55,735 bases of DNA, from the NCBI GenBank assembly GCA_023265515.1, contig JAHFSZ010000005.1:1-55735 (forward strand), in the 5' to 3' direction. This DNA comes from Verrucomicrobiota bacterium. Its GTDB lineage: Bacteria > Verrucomicrobiota > Verrucomicrobiia > JABWAM01 > JAHFSZ01. This document shows positions 44,453 through 51,539 of the stretch, piece after piece. Within the stretch, counting starts at the first letter, position 1, and each line of letters opens with the position of its first letter. Below the pieces are notes generated by a model, which was given only the letters and a program-made list of their open reading frames with translations, did no database searches and was not told where the DNA came from. A program made the translations under genes and the position numbers.

Positions 44453-47400
44453 TCAATCGCGCGTCCAGCGAACAGAGTCGACGTAGAACGTTGTGGGTGT
44501 CTGGGCGGTGATCTTCAGAGGGCACGAGACATGTGCGGGATCAACTCCCGTAAAGCTGCTGATCGCAATGCTGATTTCCTGCCACTGGCCGGCCGTCGAA
44601 CTGATAAATTTCGTCCGGGTAATGCCCCCGGGTGATTCGATTTCCACTTTCAGGGTGGATGTGCTTTTGACCCAAAACTTCAAGTGTCCGCTCGCGTAAG
44701 ACGATAGATCGTAAGTGCCACTCACCTTGAATACGCCCCAACCGGCGAAGCCGATGGTGGTCGTCTGGAAACACTCCGTCCCTTCCGGCGGCGTTTCGCC
44801 CGTGAAGCTGCCGTCCCAGGATCCAACTCCCCAGGTAAAAACCGTCGAATCCGAAGGCACGCCTGCATCCGAATAGACGCTGAAAACAGTGCCGACCGTG
44901 ATCGTTGTTTCAGGCTCATACGGCAACCCCTCCGGAGTAAACCGAAATGTGTCATCCATGCCGATCCTCTCCTCGTAGGGTTGTATGCCCGGTCGCTTAT
45001 GGTCAAAGATATAAGCGCCCCACATGTAATTGGCTCCGTAGGGAGTGTTCGCCGGGATCGTGATGGGAAACATCTGGTTGCCGCTGCCCGTGCTGATGAG
45101 GAAGTCCGAGGTCATGTAGGTGACTCCCAGGTAGACATCCTGGAGAAAGATCCGGAGCGTCATGGGGAACGATACCTGATACGGCTTCCACTGTGTGAGC
45201 ATCACGATCGTATCGAGATCATTCCAGACCACCGGGACATAGACGGTCGTGCCCGGATCAAACACCGTCGGGAAGGCCGGGTCCTCAACCTTCAGGCGCG
45301 GCGCCCATGAGACCTTGGTCGGCGCCGTGCTCAGGTCCGACGACTCGGTAAACCAAGTGGCCCAGCGGTATTTGCCTCCGCTGGCCCCGTCCTTGAAGGA
45401 TGGGTCACCCGGATCATAATCCGGCACCAAGGCGTAGTTGGGCGTGTAAGGCGGACGGAAGTCGTCGACGACACCGTTGACCACCTCGCTCTGCAGCCAG
45501 TTCTCGAACCGCATGTCCTTGGCCGACGGATAACCGCTCAACGTCGCCGCCTTGTTCAGTGTGATTTTGTCGTTGGGCGAACCACCGTCGTTCAATGTGA
45601 TGCGGTAGTACTTCGCCGCTGTGTCAAGATTGATGGTTGGCGTGTAACTGCTAGCCGCGGTGGGCGAACTGTAGATGTTTGTCCAAGTCGTCTCGTCGGA
45701 GGTTTTCTCAACCATCACCTGGTTGTTGCTACCGGCCAACTGGAAGGCCATGGTGATCTTCGGCGAGGTTGCCGACGCGATGTCTTTGAAGGCAAGGAAG
45801 AGTCGCGGCCTCTGTGCCGGTCCAACGGCGTTGCTCACCCAGTTCTGGGCGCTCTCTTCCAGCCAGGCGTTTGGATCGACGACTCCATCAAACATCGGAC
45901 TGCCGCCATAGACCTTGTTGACCAGGCCATCGCCGTTGTCGCCATCGCCCATGAGGCCAAAGTTCAGCGTCAGAGACTGGCCCCTCGTGTTATATGCAAC
46001 CCAGTTGTCGAAGGTCCGGCCAGCCATGGCCAGCGGTGTCGCGCCCGCGTGGAGGAGGCCGTATCCGGCGATGCTGGATTGGAAACCAGGATCATTTGAC
46101 GACGTGTAGAAGCCGGTCTGACTGAGCCATGGATCGGATGCGTCCCACGGGTAAGCGAATGCAATCCAGTAAATATTACCGTCGCCCGTCATCGTGGTCG
46201 ATGGCAGCGTGAACTGCACGTTCTGGCTGCCGGTGCCGTCGAGGGTCCAAATATCCTGTTCGGCAAGTACGAAGTCGTCACCGCTTGGAGTCGCATATTT
46301 GAGCTGGATCTTGATCTTGTAGATCTCGCGCGTCGCCGAATCCAAAACCCTCTGGGCAATCAGTTGGTACTGGTTGGTCATCTGGTCAAACGTATCCACG
46401 CCGAAGTTGAACACATAGGCCTTGCTCCGCCTGTCCCCATAGTCCGACGTACGCGCGTAGGTTGTGTCGAAGTAATACGTCCCCGCGTTCTGCTCATACA
46501 ACTCGATGGACGTGATTTGCTTCCAGTCGACGCCCGTGACGGCGGCCGGGGTGATCGGCCAGTAAATCTGCGTCCACTGATTTTGGATCGCATGGCCCGG
46601 CGACCAGACCATGGAACTAAGATTGCCCCATTTGTCTTTGAACTTGATCTGGACCGTGTTGTTGTCCTGCGTGTCGTAGACCCAGGCGTAAAAGCCCACG
46701 ATGCTGCTCAGGTCCACAGTTCCGCCGGGCGCCCCCAGGTTGAGACCGATCGTGCCACCTCCGCTTCCCACGGTCATCTTGACCGAGTGCGATCCGGCCT
46801 GAACAATTCCCGTCTCAAAGGCGAGGCTCGCCTGCCAAGCGTCGTAAAAGTAGGCGCCCGGCGTGCTGTTGTCCGGCTCGAAGTCCTGGAAAGACACGTC
46901 GCCCTTGGCAATCGAGTTGCTGATCATTGCGGGCGCCGAAAAGCCCGCGTTCAAAATATCAGCCAGCTTCGTTCCCGTCGTCAACACCGTCCATGCGGTG
47001 GCCGATGCGTTCGGATTCGACGCGATCAGCTGGCCGTTCGAGTAGGTTTGCGTGATGTAGTTGTTGGTATCGGTCACCCTCAGATTCTGGAGAAAACCGA
47101 GGGAAGTCGCTGCCGGGGCCACGCCGAAGATGCTTTCGACACGGCCGGGGCCGTTGGAGCCGTCTGGCTTCAGCATGCCGACGCCGCCATCGGTGGCAAT
47201 TACGGCGAACTGCGCCGATTGGGAGTAAGCCCTGAGGTTGTAACACTCATCGTTGTTCATGACATAAACGCTCGGGAGGATGACCGTGCTGAAGAATGAT
47301 TTCAGGTACCCCCAGTTGAGGTTCAGGAGTTCGCTGTCGGTCCCCCGCTCGGTGTCATCCACGAAGTAATATCCCTTCGTGGGCTCCCAAACGCCGAGCT

Positions 47401-50400
47401 GTGACGCCTTGGCGCCGAGGCCAATCTTGCCGCTGATTAGCCGCGTGTCCGTGAATGTGCCGACGCTGGAGCCGTCAAGGTAGACCTGAAAGTTACTGCC
47501 GGTAGCCTGAACCTTCAGCATATGAGATACATTCGCCGAAATCTCGTTAATATTCGCCAGGTTCTGGACGAAGTCTTGCCCGTTGACCCTGCCGCCGTAC
47601 TTGATCCGCCAGAGGCCGTAGTTATTGTAGGTCTTAACGTAGTAGTAGTTGTCGTTGTTTTGATAGCGGAAGATCAAGTACGTCTCCTGGAAATAAGGGT
47701 CTTTCACCACATACTTGAACTTGGCTTCCACATTGTAATTCGTCCAACTGCTGTCGCCTGCCACAACCATGTTGTTGCCCTGACCAATGCGGTCGAGGCT
47801 CAGCTCGTTACTCGCCACCTGCCAGCGGCTGCAGCCATCCACCTGTGTCCAGTTTGCCATGCTGCCGGTGTTGAAGTTGTCGCTGAACGCCGCGGCGCCC
47901 GTCACCACGACGTCATCAAAGCGGGTCTCGGCCGGATTGGAGTGGGCATAACCCAGGCTTTCGAGCCAGTCGCAGGTCTGACTCACCTTGTCGTAGTGCG
48001 ACGGGAAAAGAGCCTGCGTCTTACTGGACCGCACCACGGCGATGCGCCGGGGAAATGCCGTTTCACGCGACAACGGAGTGTTTTCCCACCATTGATAAGC
48101 GTACAAGTCCTGCCATTGAAGATTAAGAGATGCGGTCTGGCCTTTCGTCAACGATGTGGGCAGCGCGGTGATCGGATTGATTGCCCACTCCAGCTGAGTC
48201 AACTGCTTCGCTTCGGCAACCTTATTGCCGTTGTCCTCGAGCCAGGCATGAATGATGTACTTGCCCCCGTCCAAGGTCGACTTGTAGTCACCATCCGCCT
48301 TGTTGGCGTCGGGAATGTAAAGCCAGAGCGTCTGATCGCCCTCGCCCGAAACCACCGCGTTGGCGCTGCTATAGATTTCATTCGCCACGCCGTCGCCGTT
48401 ATCTCCATCCTCCTGGAAGGCCGCCACCAGCGTTTCATTCTGCGCACCGAGTGTGTCGTACCGAACCTTCACCTGGAAAGAGTTCTGCCCCATCGGATGA
48501 ACCACGGCAGGAGCGTCGATGATTTCGACTTTCTTGATGGCATCGGTAGTGTACGCGCGCACCAACTCATGCCCGTTGGGTTGCAGCGTGAGGTTGAACG
48601 TTCCGTTGCTGCTGGTCGCGATGATTCCGCCGCTGGTCAGGTTCTCAATCGTTCGGCCTTGAACCAGCGTCGTCGTGATGGTCACCGTCTGGCTGGCGTC
48701 GTTAAGGTAGTTGTTTGCGGAAATCAGGATCGAGCCGTCGGCGGCTGTCCGGTAATCCACAAGAACATACTGGCTTCCTGACACGTCCAGGGCGGGATTG
48801 ATGCCGAAACCTGTGCGGAAGATCGCCTTGATCCAGTCATAACGCTGGGCCCAGGGGCCGATGTCCGGCTGGCCATCCGCGTTGCTGTCCGAGCTCACGT
48901 CACCGAGTGAAAAAGTCGTAATCGCCGCCTTCGCAGTCGGAAGGTTATTGATGACAAGGGCTGGATGGCCGTTGGAATGTCTGGCATACACCACGCCCGT
49001 GGTCGGCGTCGTCATGTTGCTGTACTTCCAAACGCGGAAGGTATCTTGACGGTTCTGGGTGAGAGGGGCGAGCGCCTGGGAAACCGTCGTAGTGATCGGC
49101 ATAAATTGGATGCCGAACTGCTCATTCTCGACAGGATCGTCGTAACCGGAAGTGTTCGTCGCATCAATGCCGAAGATATCGTTCATCTGCTGCACGAAAT
49201 CCGGAAGCGGATTGACATGGTAATCCTGCATGCCAGGCAAGTCGGCATCGGCATAGATGTTGACGCCGGCCGGAGTCACCTTGCGATGGATGTAGCTGAG
49301 GTCGCCCGGATAAGTCCGCATGTTCCGCGGCAGAATGAGGGCTGAATAAGTGCTGTAGTCGCGGGGCGTGCCGTTGTTCTTTTCAACATCCTGGAACATC
49401 TGCTCAGTGCCGGCGGTGTAAGCTGCGTCATCGAAATAGTAAACACCCTGATTCTGCTCGAAAAGTTCCACCGATCGGATCTTGGCTTTGTCCAAGCCGG
49501 CGGCTTTCGGGTACTGGGAAAGGTTCCACGTGATCTTCGTCCACTGGTTTGCAACCGATGCGTTGTTGGACCAAAGGGAGTTGCCGTCACCCCTGGAACC
49601 TCCGTTTCCGTTCACGTCGCGGAGACGGAGTTGAATCGTGTTGCTGCCTTGCGTGTCGTAGACCCAGACCGAAAATGCCGTCGCCCCGCTCAGGTTCTTG
49701 CTCTGGCCGGCGTCCGCCGCGTCAATCGCGACCGAGCCGCCTCCGTTGGCGGCGTTCATCTTGACCGAACGCGTGCCGCCATGGACGGTGGTCAGGTTAA
49801 TGGACGGGTCGGCCTGGTAAACATCCTTGAAGTAGGTTGAATTGAGCAGCTCGTCGCGCTCCATGAAGGTTGGCTTCAGACCGACCCGCAGAAGGGAACC
49901 GAAAAGCTGCTGCATGTTCGACTCGTAGCGGTTGTACATCTGATCGGTCGCGTGCGACCAATAGATCGCCACGTCGGGATCGCGATCCTTGGAACCCGCC
50001 AGCAGATGGATCAGCCCGATCTGCTCCATGAGGCCATAATTGTCGCGCACGACCCAATACGCCGGCTTGATCCGCCGGTCAGCATAGGTAATGCCGAAGC
50101 CTTTCTCGCGGTCGGTGATGTATTCACGGTCCTGCCACGTGAAAACGTGAATGCCGATGACACCGCTTTCCAGCGCCTCCCAAAGCGCGTTGCGGATGAG
50201 AGGTCCCTGGTTTTGCTCGTTGATGCCAGAGAAAAGCGTCTCGGACGAAGTGAAGCCGGTTTCAGAATACATGACAGGCAGGCCGGTCCTCCACTTGGCG
50301 TTGACGATGCCCCACCGGGCGGTCTCCAATTCCGAGCCAGGCAAATTCCACGGGTAATTGTTGATCGACCAGAAATCGAGGGGCGCTCCCATGTCCTTGC

Positions 50401-51388
50401 AGGCCTGCACGATCTTGCCCGCGTGTTCGGCGTGGTAGCGCCAGTCCTCATCACCCCACTGCGTGCCGACGGCCGAGTAGCTGATCAAGTGGTTTGGATC
50501 AGCGGCGCGCACGGCTTTCGCACCGGCGGCCGTGTAGCCGGCGATGCTGTCCTGCCGCCATTCCACCAGGTCCCACCAGGCGGGATTGTCCCGGTTGTAA
50601 GGCGTGGGCATCTGAACGTCATTGAATGAACCGTAGGACGTTCCCCACACCTGGTTGAGCGCCGAGATGCTGCCGTTGTAGAAAGTGGAAAGCCAGCTCC
50701 GAAACGCGCCCTGACACTGATCGTCGTAACCATCCTGCTTGCCGCTCCAGAGGCCAACATAGCCGTACTCGTTGCCGACAATCCAGGCGACAAGCGTCGG
50801 GTTGTTCTTGTAGCGAGCTGCCACCGCGCTCAGAAACTCCGTGTACTGCGCCCGGGCGTTCGGGTTCTCGAAAGAAATGATGTCAGAGCGCCAGCGGGTG
50901 GGCTGGTAGACCCCTTCGTTGTCATAGCCGGGCGGATGCATGGTGTACCAACCCGAATCCGGATTCTCGGCCGTCGATTTCGGAAACCAATCGGGCGGCC
51001 ATTGGTAGCCCGCCAGGGCGAACACCTTGATGCCCCGCTGGGCGCAGGCTTGCAGCAGATAGTCGTAATTGGACCAGTCAAACTGGTTGTCGCCTGCCGC
51101 TTCGATCTCCTTCCAGACGAAATCCACCCGAACGGAGTTGACATGCGCTTTGACCATCTCATCGAGGTCATAATTGATCTGATCGTACGTCTGCCAGACG
51201 CCGAGCGGGCGGTTCCATGTCTGATAGGCGATGCCGTGCGGCAGCCAATAACTGCTTGCAGTGGGGTCGTAGAAATAACCGTTCTGGATTCGAATGAATC
51301 GCTGATCATGGGCGTGGAGATGAGGGCACTGCGGCAAAAATACTGGAAACAGAAAAAGAAGACAGGATGACAGAATTTTCGTCTTCAC
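44453..51388 (-). CDS. Giant secreted multimodular glycoside hydrolase, clan GH-A (GH42-like catalytic domain) with CBM, lectin and Ig modules
   Basis: Signal peptide from GTG 51388; MVKAHVNSVRVDFVWKEIE, IVGNEYG (acid/base), MYSETG (nucleophile); GH42 trimerisation-like domains; several beta-sandwich modules. Confidence 0.85.
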   Translation of the reverse strand: MKTKILSSCLLFLFPVFLPQCPHLHAHDQRFIRIQNGYFYDPTASSYWLPHGIAYQTWNRPLGVWQTYDQINYDLDEMVKAHVNSVRVDFVWKEIEAAGDNQFDWSNYDYLLQACAQRGIKVFALAGYQWPPDWFPKSTAENPDSGWYTMHPPGYDNEGVYQPTRWRSDIISFENPNARAQYTEFLSAVAARYKNNPTLVAWIVGNEYGYVGLWSGKQDGYDDQCQGAFRSWLSTFYNGSISALNQVWGTSYGSFNDVQMPTPYNRDNPAWWDLVEWRQDSIAGYTAAGAKAVRAADPNHLISYSAVGTQWGDEDWRYHAEHAGKIVQACKDMGAPLDFWSINNYPWNLPGSELETARWGIVNAKWRTGLPVMYSETGFTSSETLFSGINEQNQGPLIRNALWEALESGVIGIHVFTWQDREYITDREKGFGITYADRRIKPAYWVVRDNYGLMEQIGLIHLLAGSKDRDPDVAIYWSHATDQMYNRYESNMQQLFGSLLRVGLKPTFMERDELLNSTYFKDVYQADPSINLTTVHGGTRSVKMNAANGGGSVAIDAADAGQSKNLSGATAFSVWVYDTQGSNTIQLRLRDVNGNGGSRGDGNSLWSNNASVANQWTKITWNLSQYPKAAGLDKAKIRSVELFEQNQGVYYFDDAAYTAGTEQMFQDVEKNNGTPRDYSTYSALILPRNMRTYPGDLSYIHRKVTPAGVNIYADADLPGMQDYHVNPLPDFVQQMNDIFGIDATNTSGYDDPVENEQFGIQFMPITTTVSQALAPLTQNRQDTFRVWKYSNMTTPTTGVVYARHSNGHPALVINNLPTAKAAITTFSLGDVSSDSNADGQPDIGPWAQRYDWIKAIFRTGFGINPALDVSGSQYVLVDYRTAADGSILISANNYLNDASQTVTITTTLVQGRTIENLTSGGIIATSSNGTFNLTLQPNGHELVRAYTTDAIKKVEIIDAPAVVHPMGQNSFQVKVRYDTLGAQNETLVAAFQEDGDNGDGVANEIYSSANAVVSGEGDQTLWLYIPDANKADGDYKSTLDGGKYIIHAWLEDNGNKVAEAKQLTQLEWAINPITALPTSLTKGQTASLNLQWQDLYAYQWWENTPLSRETAFPRRIAVVRSSKTQALFPSHYDKVSQTCDWLESLGYAHSNPAETRFDDVVVTGAAAFSDNFNTGSMANWTQVDGCSRWQVASNELSLDRIGQGNNMVVAGDSSWTNYNVEAKFKYVVKDPYFQETYLIFRYQNNDNYYYVKTYNNYGLWRIKYGGRVNGQDFVQNLANINEISANVSHMLKVQATGSNFQVYLDGSSVGTFTDTRLISGKIGLGAKASQLGVWEPTKGYYFVDDTERGTDSELLNLNWGYLKSFFSTVILPSVYVMNNDECYNLRAYSQSAQFAVIATDGGVGMLKPDGSNGPGRVESIFGVAPAATSLGFLQNLRVTDTNNYITQTYSNGQLIASNPNASATAWTVLTTGTKLADILNAGFSAPAMISNSIAKGDVSFQDFEPDNSTPGAYFYDAWQASLAFETGIVQAGSHSVKMTVGSGGGTIGLNLGAPGGTVDLSSIVGFYAWVYDTQDNNTVQIKFKDKWGNLSSMVWSPGHAIQNQWTQIYWPITPAAVTGVDWKQITSIELYEQNAGTYYFDTTYARTSDYGDRRSKAYVFNFGVDTFDQMTNQYQLIAQRVLDSATREIYKIKIQLKYATPSGDDFVLAEQDIWTLDGTGSQNVQFTLPSTTMTGDGNIYWIAFAYPWDASDPWLSQTGFYTSSNDPGFQSSIAGYGLLHAGATPLAMAGRTFDNWVAYNTRGQSLTLNFGLMGDGDNGDGLVNKVYGGSPMFDGVVDPNAWLEESAQNWVSNAVGPAQRPRLFLAFKDIASATSPKITMAFQLAGSNNQVMVEKTSDETTWTNIYSSPTAASSYTPTINLDTAAKYYRITLNDGGSPNDKITLNKAATLSGYPSAKDMRFENWLQSEVVNGVVDDFRPPYTPNYALVPDYDPGDPSFKDGASGGKYRWATWFTESSDLSTAPTKVSWAPRLKVEDPAFPTVFDPGTTVYVPVVWNDLDTIVMLTQWKPYQVSFPMTLRIFLQDVYLGVTYMTSDFLISTGSGNQMFPITIPANTPYGANYMWGAYIFDHKRPGIQPYEERIGMDDTFRFTPEGLPYEPETTITVGTVFSVYSDAGVPSDSTVFTWGVGSWDGSFTGETPPEGTECFQTTTIGFAGWGVFKVSGTYDLSSYASGHLKFWVKSTSTLKVEIESPGGITRTKFISSTAGQWQEISIAISSFTGVDPAHVSCPLKITAQTPTTFYVDSVRWTRD

Positions 51389-51539
51389 GGTTGTTGTTTT
51401 GTCGAAAGATTTTTGAGATCCCGGAAGCCGGCTTAACCCCAATGAGACACTCGGGAATTTAAAGAGTATAAATACTTAGTTCAGTTCCCCACGAAGCGAT
51501 CCTTGTACTATCCTCACCCCTCTTGATCTGCAAGAAATT

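What the first reader, a model, noticed from the sequence alone, without database searches (positions are those of the whole stretch)
46455..49834. Two apparently circularly permuted carbohydrate-binding modules inside the same protein
Seen: CBM copy at 46455-46891 reads FQDFEPDNSTPG-YFYDAWQA...GSHSVKM...WVYDTQDNNT...NQWT...IELYEQNAGTYYFD. The copy at 49364-49834 starts YFKDVYQA...GTRSVKM...WVYDTQGSNT...NQWT...VELFEQNQGVYYFD and carries FQDVEKNNGTP at its end, so the first strand has moved to the C-terminus. Likewise the DUF1080/ConA-like domain (47402-47932) has its usual last strand (TRFDDVVV) placed before FSDNF...SGKIGL. A permuted and a non-permuted version of one CBM in one polypeptide is a rare natural test case for how domain insertion occurs.
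Basis: partly seen in the sequence, partly recalled or inferred. Interest (0 to 1): 0.62.

Follow-up and report, generated by a model that had tools for sequence, protein, structure and literature searches.

The report
Circularly permuted sugar-binding domain nested in glycosidase
One giant secreted glycosidase carries the same small sugar-binding-type domain twice, once in normal order and once rotated so that its first strand comes last. This is a real but not unprecedented example of how domains inserted into other domains arise from tandem repeats.

Summary
Both copies lie in one 2329-aa GH42-like protein on the minus strand (44453-51442).

- **CBM2 (aa 1518-1660)** has the canonical order of a small unnamed jelly-roll family: the head FQDFE..NGTP comes first and YYFD comes last.
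- **CBM1 (aa 538-696)** is an exact one-unit circular permutant: core, a 10-aa linker, then the head.
  - It aligns as a single stretch to a doubled canonical copy.
  - Its displaced head scores 31.8 bits on a head matrix; the best unrelated 11-mer in the six-frame window scores 15.2.
  - The tail is more conserved among five orthologues (84%) than the core (73%).
  - Thirty homologues lack exactly this block.
- **Structure prediction.** AlphaFold gave the tail low confidence when the domain was modelled alone. In its host it gave pLDDT 86-93, with a strand hairpinned onto the last strand. No coordinates were available, so occupancy of the first-strand slot is inferred.
- **A second permutant.** A GH30 enzyme from another metagenome carries the same family with a different break point. 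Tandem arrays of the family are common, which fits capture of one out-of-register repeat unit.
- **The DUF1080-like domain** is probably permuted too. Moving the N-side strand to the C-end completes the Pfam profile in 8 of 8 homologues, and controls do not. This is not shown structurally.

Circular permutation of CBMs is already known (CBM36/CBM60), so this is a new member of a known kind.

The parts
44453..51442 (-). Gene for a 2329-aa secreted multidomain GH42-like glycosidase (P0001). The database copy P0002 starts 18 codons later.
   Evidence: ORF list and translation. Pfam Glyco_hydro_42 scores 84.8 bits against a cutoff of 21. The un-inserted homologue P0010 matches solved GH42 beta-galactosidases over the barrel.
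50126..51193 (-). GH42-type TIM-barrel catalytic domain, aa 84-439.
   Evidence: Pfam PF02449, E 1e-23.
49832..49990 (-). First half of host alpha/beta domain 1 (aa ~485-537): strand, helix, strand PTFME and short helix RDELL, lying before the insert.
   Evidence: AlphaFold secondary structure: E12-16, H21-40, E45-49, H50-54 of construct 480-890. It is continuous with the second half in 30 un-inserted homologues.
49427..49831 (-). CBM1 core, aa 538-672 (FKDVYQA...VYYFDD). This corresponds to canonical positions ~15-142.
   Evidence: Family HMM 5/12-142, 142 bits. pLDDT above 90 in both models. Foldseek matches jelly-roll CBMs.
49397..49426 (-). 10-aa linker AAYTAGTEQM (aa 673-682) that joins the former C-terminus to the former N-terminus.
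   Evidence: It is the least conserved part, at 50% pairwise identity. In the model it forms the turn and the start of the hairpin strand.
49355..49396 (-). Displaced head FQDVEKNNGTPRDY (aa 683-696). This corresponds to canonical positions 1-14, now at the C-end of CBM1.
   Evidence: Head matrix score 31.8 bits. Family HMM positions 1-15 match here. 83.6% conserved in orthologues. pLDDT 86-93 in the host context but below 50 in the isolated-domain model.
48773..49354 (-). Second half of host alpha/beta domain 1 (aa 697-890), resuming at STYSALILPRN.
   Evidence: Alignment A2 with un-inserted homologues and the AlphaFold model.
47903..47926 (-). Strand TRFDDVVV (aa 1173-1180). It is the probable displaced last strand of the DUF1080-like domain; the alternative is that it is beta-2 of host domain 2.
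   Evidence: The orthologous strand, moved to the C-end, completes PF06439 to position 184-186 of 187 in 8 of 8 homologues. Controls do not.
47399..47887 (-). DUF1080 / ConA-like core (aa 1186-1348), FSDNF...SGKIGLGAKASQ.
   Evidence: PF06439 scores 20.8 bits for this sequence, below the cutoff. Homologues score 33-41 bits, above it. There is a weak CBM66 levanase match in the PDB.
47354..47398 (-). LGVWEPTKGYYFVDD (aa 1349-1363). This is probably the host strand and is retained in homologues that lack the DUF1080 block.
   Evidence: P0009 and P0010 read LGYQKAE|LGIWEPAKGYYILTD. The segment does not extend the PF06439 match.
46463..46891 (-). CBM2 (aa 1518-1660), a canonical-order copy inserted in a hairpin of host domain 2.
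   Evidence: Family HMM 1-142, 169.5 bits. The head scores 37.0 bits. P0009, P0010 and P0012 lack it...APALISNKYGPNGSKAFVFNFG.
44477..44839 (-). C-terminal jelly roll (aa 2202-2322), a distant relative of the same family without a recognisable head.
   Evidence: Family HMM 14-141, 18.3 bits, i-E 1.7e-5. Pfam Exop_C is weak, at 16.9 bits.

Best explanation
**The gene.** It encodes a giant secreted GH42-like glycosidase, probably from an Omnitrophota-type MAG. Its non-catalytic alpha/beta domains carry nested beta-sandwich modules.

**The CBM-like family.** Two of the modules belong to one small, unnamed jelly-roll family of CBM type.
- Its canonical order is head FQDFE..NGTP..Y, then the core, then the last strand YYFD.
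- CBM2 (aa 1518-1660) is a canonical copy inserted in a hairpin.
- CBM1 (aa 538-696) is an exact one-unit circular permutant: core positions 15-142, a 10-aa linker, then head positions 1-14.
- CBM1 sits in the loop between strand 2 and strand 3 of the alpha/beta domain that follows the catalytic barrel.

**Inferred structure of CBM1.** The displaced head folds back as a hairpin onto the last strand and takes the place of the missing first strand. This brings the chain back next to the point where the insert began, which is the geometry an inserted domain needs.

**Inferred origin.** One repeat-length piece was captured out of register from a tandem array of the family.

**The DUF1080-like domain.** The domain at aa 1173-1348 is probably built the same way, with its usual last strand (TRFDDVVV) ahead of its first (FSDNF).

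**Shown versus inferred.** Shown: the sequence-level permutation, the insertion boundaries, the conservation and the fold class. Inferred: which slot the tail fills, the route of origin and carbohydrate binding.
For: 1. **The canonical order is head first.** 74 of 186 domain hits are full length with the head at HMM position 1, and many end a protein at YYFD. A 189-aa secreted stand-alone copy in the same genome runs from LQDFEPSNGT to YYIDDVEYE and then stop.
2. **Doubled-sequence test.** The CBM1 insert (aa 1-160 of the insert) gives one contiguous stretch on the doubled P0011 copy (positions 16-172, 54% identity, 182 bits against 167 for a single copy). The same holds on doubled CBM2 and on the doubled stand-alone copy. 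The family HMM matches 12-142 and then 1-15.
3. **Head matrix.** The tail scores 31.8 bits in the window, and 28.9-35.6 bits in the four orthologues. The host side of CBM1 scores -3.9.
4. **Insertion boundaries.** 30 homologues from several phyla join ELLxGE directly to YxxYxAIILP, so core and tail are one inserted block.
5. **Conservation.** Pairwise identity among five orthologues is 83.6% for the tail, 72.6% for the core and 50% for the linker.
6. **AlphaFold in the host context.** Mean pLDDT is 88.2 and pTM 0.87. The tail blocks score 93 and 86. Strand 200-205 comes straight after last strand 187-198.
7. **Fold class.** Foldseek matches CBM11, CBM8, CBM22 and CBM30 jelly rolls, with TM 0.5-0.6 and E 1e-6 to 1e-4.
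8. **An independent permutant.** P0088 is a complete GH30 gene with split PF02055 hits. It carries HMM 43-141 and then 1-42, and it nests among canonical copies in the tree.
9. **Tandem arrays are common.** The next head follows 8-37 aa after YYFD.
10. **DUF1080-like domain.** Appending the N-side strand to the core's C-end adds 2.2 to 8.1 bits and completes PF06439 in 8 of 8 homologues. It also adds 5-8 bits to PF21708. Four kinds of control add at most 1 bit. P0009 and P0010 lack exactly FDDVVV...GAKASQ.
Against: - The isolated CBM1 model left the tail from V686 onward below pLDDT 50. The confident placement used an alignment enriched with natural tandem-junction rows plus the host anchoring, so it is not independent of my choices.
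- No coordinates were returned, so strand pairing and occupancy of the first-strand slot are inferred from DSSP order alone.
- No canonical copy was modelled for comparison.
- HMMER scores the short tail at only 1.9-6.5 bits on its own.
- For the DUF1080-like domain, the window's own sequence is below the Pfam cutoff (20.8 against 26.8 bits), and its rearranged versions returned no hit.
- Profile-profile alignment of host 1 against host 2 cannot tell which strand is the host's (scores 21.3 and 22.2).
- Carbohydrate binding is untested, and the family has no Pfam or NCBIfam model.
- The host was not confirmed as a GH42 domain B by Pfam or Foldseek.
Confidence: 0.8

Rival explanations
1. The tail is a vestigial stump. 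On this reading CBM1 is a tandem pair whose second copy was deleted after its first 14 residues. FQDVEKNNGTPRDY is then only a linker back to the host, and CBM1 works without a first strand.
For: The isolated-domain AlphaFold model gives the tail from V686 onward pLDDT below 50 and no strand at FQDVE. Tandem arrays that could leave such stumps are common. Some other proteins show head-like motifs after a domain with no recognisable core following (P0098, P0078, P0079).
Against: The tail is the best-conserved part of the insert (83.6% against 72.6% for the core), and it keeps every family-conserved head position: F/Y, Q, E, N, G, T. The block contains each canonical position exactly once. The tail is confident in the host-context model. 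P0088 shows the same exact-unit logic with a 42-residue displaced piece that cannot be a mere linker.
Confidence: 0.12
2. The DUF1080-like domain is in canonical order. On this reading TRFDDVVV is beta-strand 2 of host alpha/beta domain 2, the sandwich starts at FSDNF and closes with GYYFVDD, and P0009 and P0010 lost the block by a deletion that happened to swap strands.
For: Host 1 carries its insert after strand 2, so an insert after FDDVVV would be at the equivalent site. hhalign aligns host-1 strand 2 to either candidate about equally (21.3 against 22.2). In many homologues 200-480 aa of extra domains lie between FDNVTV and the core, which is simpler to explain if those domains merely sit in tandem. 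The window's own sequence gave no Pfam result in the rearrangement test.
Against: GYYFIDDDE never extends the PF06439 or PF21708 match, whereas the N-side strand completes both in 8 of 8 homologues. Shuffled, host-1 and other-domain strands add at most 1 bit. P0009 and P0010 keep LGIWEPAKGYYILTD and lack FDNVTV, so that segment serves the host without any DUF1080 present.
Confidence: 0.25
3. The arrangement is an assembly or frame artefact, or a chance resemblance.
For: None found. The window comes from an 88.5%-complete MAG of 103 contigs.
Against: The same arrangement, with an intact frame, is found in four orthologues from other assemblies at 64-70% identity. The matrix score is 16 bits above anything else in the window.
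Confidence: 0.01

Closest known systems
CBM36 / CBM60 (Montanier et al. [quoted passage not shown] I know it only from reference lists in PMC4725902 and PMC6852018; the paper itself is not held.
   Same: It is a natural circular permutation of a jelly-roll carbohydrate-binding module.
   Different: That permutation separates two CAZy families found in different enzymes. Here the canonical and permuted forms belong to one sequence family (39-56% identity), sit in one polypeptide, and the permuted form is nested inside another domain.
Swaposin, the plant-specific insert of plant aspartic proteases (from my own knowledge, not checked here).
   Same: A domain sits inside a host enzyme in circularly permuted order relative to its free-standing relatives.
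   Different: It has a helical saposin fold and a eukaryotic host. No tandem-array intermediates survive in that family.
Jelly-roll CBM families CBM11, CBM8, CBM22 and CBM30 (PDB 6r31, 7t7y, 1dyo/1h6x, 1wmx/2c24).
   Same: The fold class matches: Foldseek TM 0.5-0.6, probability 1.00.
   Different: Sequence identity is only 12-17%, and there is no Pfam or NCBIfam match. Binding has not been tested.
PF06439, 3-keto-disaccharide hydrolase / DUF1080 (ConA-like), and the CBM66 levanase module (PDB 4b1l, 4azz).
   Same: The homologous domain in P0018 and P0012 passes the Pfam cutoff, and the core matches profile positions 6-173. There is a weak CBM66 match.
   Different: The profile's last ~13 positions are matched only by a strand that lies N-terminal of the core.
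Concanavalin A versus favin, and the Fibrobacter GH16 lichenase (from my own knowledge, not checked here).
   Same: Circular permutation is tolerated in ConA-like sandwiches.
   Different: ConA is permuted after translation. Neither of these is an inserted domain.

Membership tests
Circular permutant of the FQDFE...YYFD jelly-roll family (CBM1) | Every canonical segment is present once, in rotated order, and aligns contiguously to a doubled canonical copy. | tested here: met
   One stretch covers insert positions 1-160 on doubled P0011 (16-172), doubled CBM2 (16-169) and the doubled stand-alone paralogue. The family HMM matches 12-142 and then 1-15.
Circular permutant of the FQDFE...YYFD jelly-roll family (CBM1) | The rest of the family has the unrotated order. 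| tested here: met
   74 full-length hits start at the head. Only the five orthologues and P0088 have the head after the core with no following domain.
Circular permutant of the FQDFE...YYFD jelly-roll family (CBM1) | The displaced segment occupies its original place in the fold. | tested here: inconclusive
   pLDDT is 86-93, and a strand is hairpinned on the last strand, in the host-context model. pLDDT is below 50 in the isolated model. No coordinates or permutation-aware superposition were available.
Carbohydrate-binding module (CAZy sense) | Demonstrated carbohydrate binding by a member. | not testable with these tools
   Only fold similarity to CBM11, CBM8, CBM22 and CBM30 and co-occurrence with GH2, GH3, GH30 and GH42 catalytic domains.
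Any named CBM, Pfam or NCBIfam family | A profile match above the curated cutoff. | tested here: not met
   No hit for either CBM segment at E up to 10. NCBIfam gave none.
PF06439 (DUF1080 / 3-keto-disaccharide hydrolase) | A profile score at or above 26.8 bits. | tested here: inconclusive
   The window's own core scores 20.8 bits. Homologues of the same domain score 33-41 bits, and P0018 matches aa 1120-1420 of the window's protein at E 3.3e-91.
PF06439, circularly permuted form | The C-terminal profile positions are matched by a segment that lies N-terminal of the core. | tested here: met
   Met in 8 of 8 homologues, with gains of 2.2 to 8.1 bits and the match reaching position 184-186 of 187. 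Controls add at most 1 bit. There is no result for the window's own sequence.
GH42 beta-galactosidase family | The Glyco_hydro_42 catalytic barrel. | tested here: met
   PF02449 scores 84.8 bits against a cutoff of 21. The homologue P0010 matches solved GH42 structures. Catalytic residues were not examined.
GH42 domain B (trimerisation / GATase1-like) as the host of CBM1 | A PF08532 match or a fold match. | tested here: not met
   No Pfam hit on the un-inserted host. No GH42 chain appears among the top Foldseek matches. Only the position after the barrel and the alternating strand-helix pattern support it.

The most novel reading that the evidence does not exclude
Capture of exactly one repeat length, cut out of register from a tandem array (possibly through an excised circular intermediate), may be a recurrent route by which beta-sandwich modules become nested inside other domains. 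On this reading the circular permutation is the footprint of the mechanism, not an adaptation. The same family has done it at least twice with different break points: in a GH42-like alpha/beta domain and in a GH30 barrel. An unrelated ConA-like domain in the same protein shows the same footprint, with further domains nested at its old termini in homologues.
Probability: 0.3. Interest if true: 0.65.

Novelty: new member of a known kind. Interest (0 to 1): 0.48.

Why it matters
The permutation-by-duplication model is usually argued from end states alone. Here one small family offers all of the following at once:
- free-standing copies;
- tandem arrays, which are the presumed intermediates;
- a canonical inserted copy;
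- two independent exact one-unit permutants inserted in different host folds.

One protein holds both the canonical and the permuted form. That makes folding, stability and binding of the two topologies directly comparable in a natural pair.

The work also flags an unnamed jelly-roll family attached to GH2, GH3, GH30 and GH42 enzymes as a candidate new CBM family.

For annotation, it shows why profile searches truncate or split such nested domains.

Tried and rejected
- **Pfam and NCBIfam on the whole protein and on the three segments.** No hit for either CBM or for the window's DUF1080-like segment at first pass.
- **Homologue searches.** The third search, with CBM2 plus flanks, returned only two proteins. 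The search restricted to CBM2 returned seven.
- **AlphaFold of the isolated CBM1 insert.** I used an alignment in which only 5 of 30 rows covered the tail. The tail was unplaced, so I repeated the run in the host context with tail columns covered by natural tandem-junction rows.
- **Foldseek of the host-plus-insert model.** It found only the CBM part and did not identify the host fold.
- **phmmer of the DUF1080-like segment against the PDB.** Only a weak CBM66 match (E 0.28) that stops before the last strand.
- **hhalign of un-inserted host 1 against two spliced versions of host 2.** Scores of 21.3 and 22.2 do not discriminate.
- **Rearranged versions of the window's own DUF1080-like core.** They gave no Pfam output at all, so the test rests on homologues.
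- **The head-like 11-mer YQNFESGGAIT at + 17343.** It scores 15.2 bits but is not part of any family domain.
- **P0098, P0120, P0078 and P0079 as further permutants.** Considered and rejected, because they have degenerate heads upstream or are cut tandem copies.
- **The Montanier 2010 paper.** It is not held.

Full report
**Where and what.** Pfam finds a GH42 catalytic barrel at aa 84-439 (84.8 bits) and a weak galactose-binding-like match at the C-terminus. NCBIfam finds nothing. The closest relatives are 64-70% identical proteins from metagenome assemblies, one of them named as a Candidatus Omnitrophota MAG beta-galactosidase. The quoted peptides are at the stated coordinates. Window 49364-49834 is aa 537-693, 46455-46891 is aa 1518-1663, and 47402-47932 is aa 1171-1347.

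- The two CBM-like copies are 39% identical over 146 aa (E 1e-33). The segment after the first copy (FQDVEKNNGTPRDY) matches the start of the second (FQDFEPDNSTPGAY) at 8 of 14 positions.
- I built a position matrix from 68 heads of other proteins, leaving out this orthologue group. It gives 37.0 bits to the CBM2 head and 31.8 bits to the CBM1 tail.
- The best of the other 87,267 eleven-mers in the six-frame window scores 15.2, and the bulk has mean -27 with sd 6.4.
- In the four orthologues the tail scores 28.9-35.6 bits, as high as their canonical heads. The host residues in front of CBM1 score -3.9.

**Which order is the normal one.**
- A search of 1.84 billion representatives with CBM2 found only 127 clusters at E <= 0.001, so the family is small. 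It has no Pfam model.
- Of 186 domain hits, 74 are full length and begin with [FYLI]Q[DN]FE..NGT. Most hits end at YYFD, often at the very end of the protein.
- The window's own genome has a 189-aa secreted protein that is nothing but a signal peptide plus one such domain, running from LQDFEPSNGT to YYIDDVEYE and then stop.
- CBM2 is therefore the canonical form and CBM1 is the odd one.

**CBM1 is an exact one-unit circular permutant.**
- The family HMM (142 positions) matches CBM1 as 12-142 followed by 1-15.
- Against a canonical copy written twice in a row, the CBM1 insert aligns as one contiguous stretch across the junction. On doubled P0011 it covers 1-160 against 16-172, at 54% identity and 182 bits, compared with 167 bits for a single copy. 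The same happens on doubled CBM2 and on the doubled stand-alone paralogue.
- Each canonical position is present once. The cut lies between Y14 and F15 of the canonical numbering.

**It is one inserted block.** Thirty homologues from several phyla read ...FINREELLAGE|YINYQAIILPRN..., joining position 58/59 directly to 216/217 of aa 480-890. The block they lack is YFKD...NNGTPRD, that is, core, linker and tail together. The tail therefore belongs to the insert and not to the host.

**The tail is under selection.** Mean pairwise identity among the five orthologues is 83.6% in the tail, 72.6% in the core and 50% in the linker. EKNNGTP is invariant.

**Structure prediction.**
- Modelled alone, with an alignment in which only 5 of 30 rows covered the tail, the core came out at pLDDT above 90 but the tail from V686 on was below 50.
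- I then modelled it inside its host domain (aa 480-890), with the tail columns covered by 14 rows. These included natural stretches running from a core to the next head in tandem arrays. The model has mean pLDDT 88.2 and pTM 0.87.
- In that model the tail blocks score 93 and 86, and a strand TEQMFQ (construct 200-205) follows the long last strand (187-198) after a one-residue turn.
- This is the geometry expected if the old termini were joined by a short linker. I did not receive coordinates, so occupancy of the first-strand slot is inference.
- Foldseek places the domain among jelly-roll CBMs (CBM11, CBM8, CBM22, CBM30) at TM 0.5-0.6.

**How it probably arose.**
- Tandem arrays of this family are common, with the next head 8-37 aa after YYFD. 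CBM1 has 10.
- A piece one repeat long, cut at the same point in two successive repeats, gives exactly what is seen.
- P0088 is a second case. It is a complete GH30 gene in the interior of a 6.8-kb contig from a hydrocarbon metagenome, and its GH30 Pfam match is split in two.
- P0088 carries HMM 43-141 (88.5 bits) followed by 1-42 (31.5 bits). It aligns contiguously to the doubled canonical copy at 62% identity.
- In a tree of 193 cores, the five permuted orthologues form a clade (support 1.0). That clade is sister to a group of canonical copies in which P0088 nests. CBM2 lies outside this 13-member group.
- The two permutants have different break points and different hosts, so they are separate events. 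CBM1 and CBM2 are not recent duplicates of each other.

**The DUF1080-like domain.**
- Pfam does not reach its cutoff on the window's own sequence: 20.8 bits against 26.8 for the core alone. It does reach the cutoff on the same domain in homologues, at 33-41 bits. P0018 matches aa 1120-1420 of the window's protein at E 3.3e-91.
- In every case the natural sequence matches profile positions about 6-173 of 187 and stops. The segment after the core (LGIWEPQKGYYFIDDDE) never extends the match.
- When the strand that lies before the core (..SFDNVTV.., TRFDDVVV here) is written after it, the match runs to position 184-186. The score rises by 2.2 to 8.1 bits in 8 of 8 homologues, and the GH59 lectin-domain profile rises by 5-8 bits.
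- Four controls add at most 1 bit: a shuffled strand, strand 2 of host domain 1, the last strand of a neighbouring domain, and GYYFIDDDE.
- Two homologues that lack the domain (P0009, P0010) lack exactly FDNVTV...GAKASQ and keep LGIWEPAKGYYILTD, as expected if the latter belongs to the host.
- Against this, profile-profile alignment of host 1 with host 2 accepts either strand. In many homologues 200-480 aa of extra domains lie between FDNVTV and the core, which would require three levels of nesting.
- I put the permuted reading at about 0.75.

**Comparison with what is known.** Natural circular permutation linking two jelly-roll CBM families (CBM36 and CBM60) is published (Montanier 2010, cited in PMC4725902 and PMC6852018). 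Engineered permutation of CBM21 is tolerated (PMC3511584). Permuted inserted domains are known from swaposins (my own knowledge, not checked here). The finding is therefore a new member of a known kind. Its particular value is that canonical, tandem, inserted and permuted states all survive in one small family, with two of them in one polypeptide.

**Verdict.** It is supported with reservations at the structural level for CBM1, and probable for the DUF1080-like domain. Interest is moderate.

Noticed in passing
P0088 (locus L004 893-2821): A GH30 enzyme from a hydrocarbon metagenome has the same CBM-like family inserted in its TIM barrel after SPWSPPAWMKT. It is permuted at a different point (HMM 43-141, then 1-42), and the GH30 Pfam match is split in two.
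   Followed up: partly
G000 contig 80, 15725-16171 (locus L003 1393-1962, + strand): A 189-aa secreted stand-alone canonical copy of the CBM-like family sits in the window's own genome, next to a 243-aa protein with a PEP-CTERM-like tail. It would serve as a natural control for the canonical fold.
   Followed up: partly
window 44477-44839 (-), aa 2202-2322: The C-terminal jelly roll is a distant member of the same family (HMM 14-141, 18.3 bits) without a recognisable head. Orthologues and P0012 carry one or more such copies.
   Followed up: no
homologues P0008, P0012, P0015, P0019, P0025 and others (protein level): One to three extra ~150-aa sandwich domains (FxDDMESG...WYVDDVxV) lie between the FDNVTV strand and the DUF1080-like core. 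If the permuted reading is right, this is three-deep nesting. The host alpha/beta domains also carry further inserts of 130-600 aa at another loop in many homologues.
   Followed up: partly
window 46463-46891 (-): CBM2 is itself an inserted domain, in canonical order. P0009, P0010 and P0012 read straight through (APALISNKYGPNGSKAFVFNFG). One protein therefore shows both ways of nesting the same family.
   Followed up: partly
window 51389-51442 (-): The longest ORF starts at a TTG, but the database copy (P0002, 2311 aa) starts 18 codons later. The start codon is not settled. A signal-peptide-like stretch follows either start.
   Followed up: no
window 17343 (+): YQNFESGGAIT is the best head-like 11-mer outside the gene (15.2 bits), but no family domain follows it.
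   Followed up: yes
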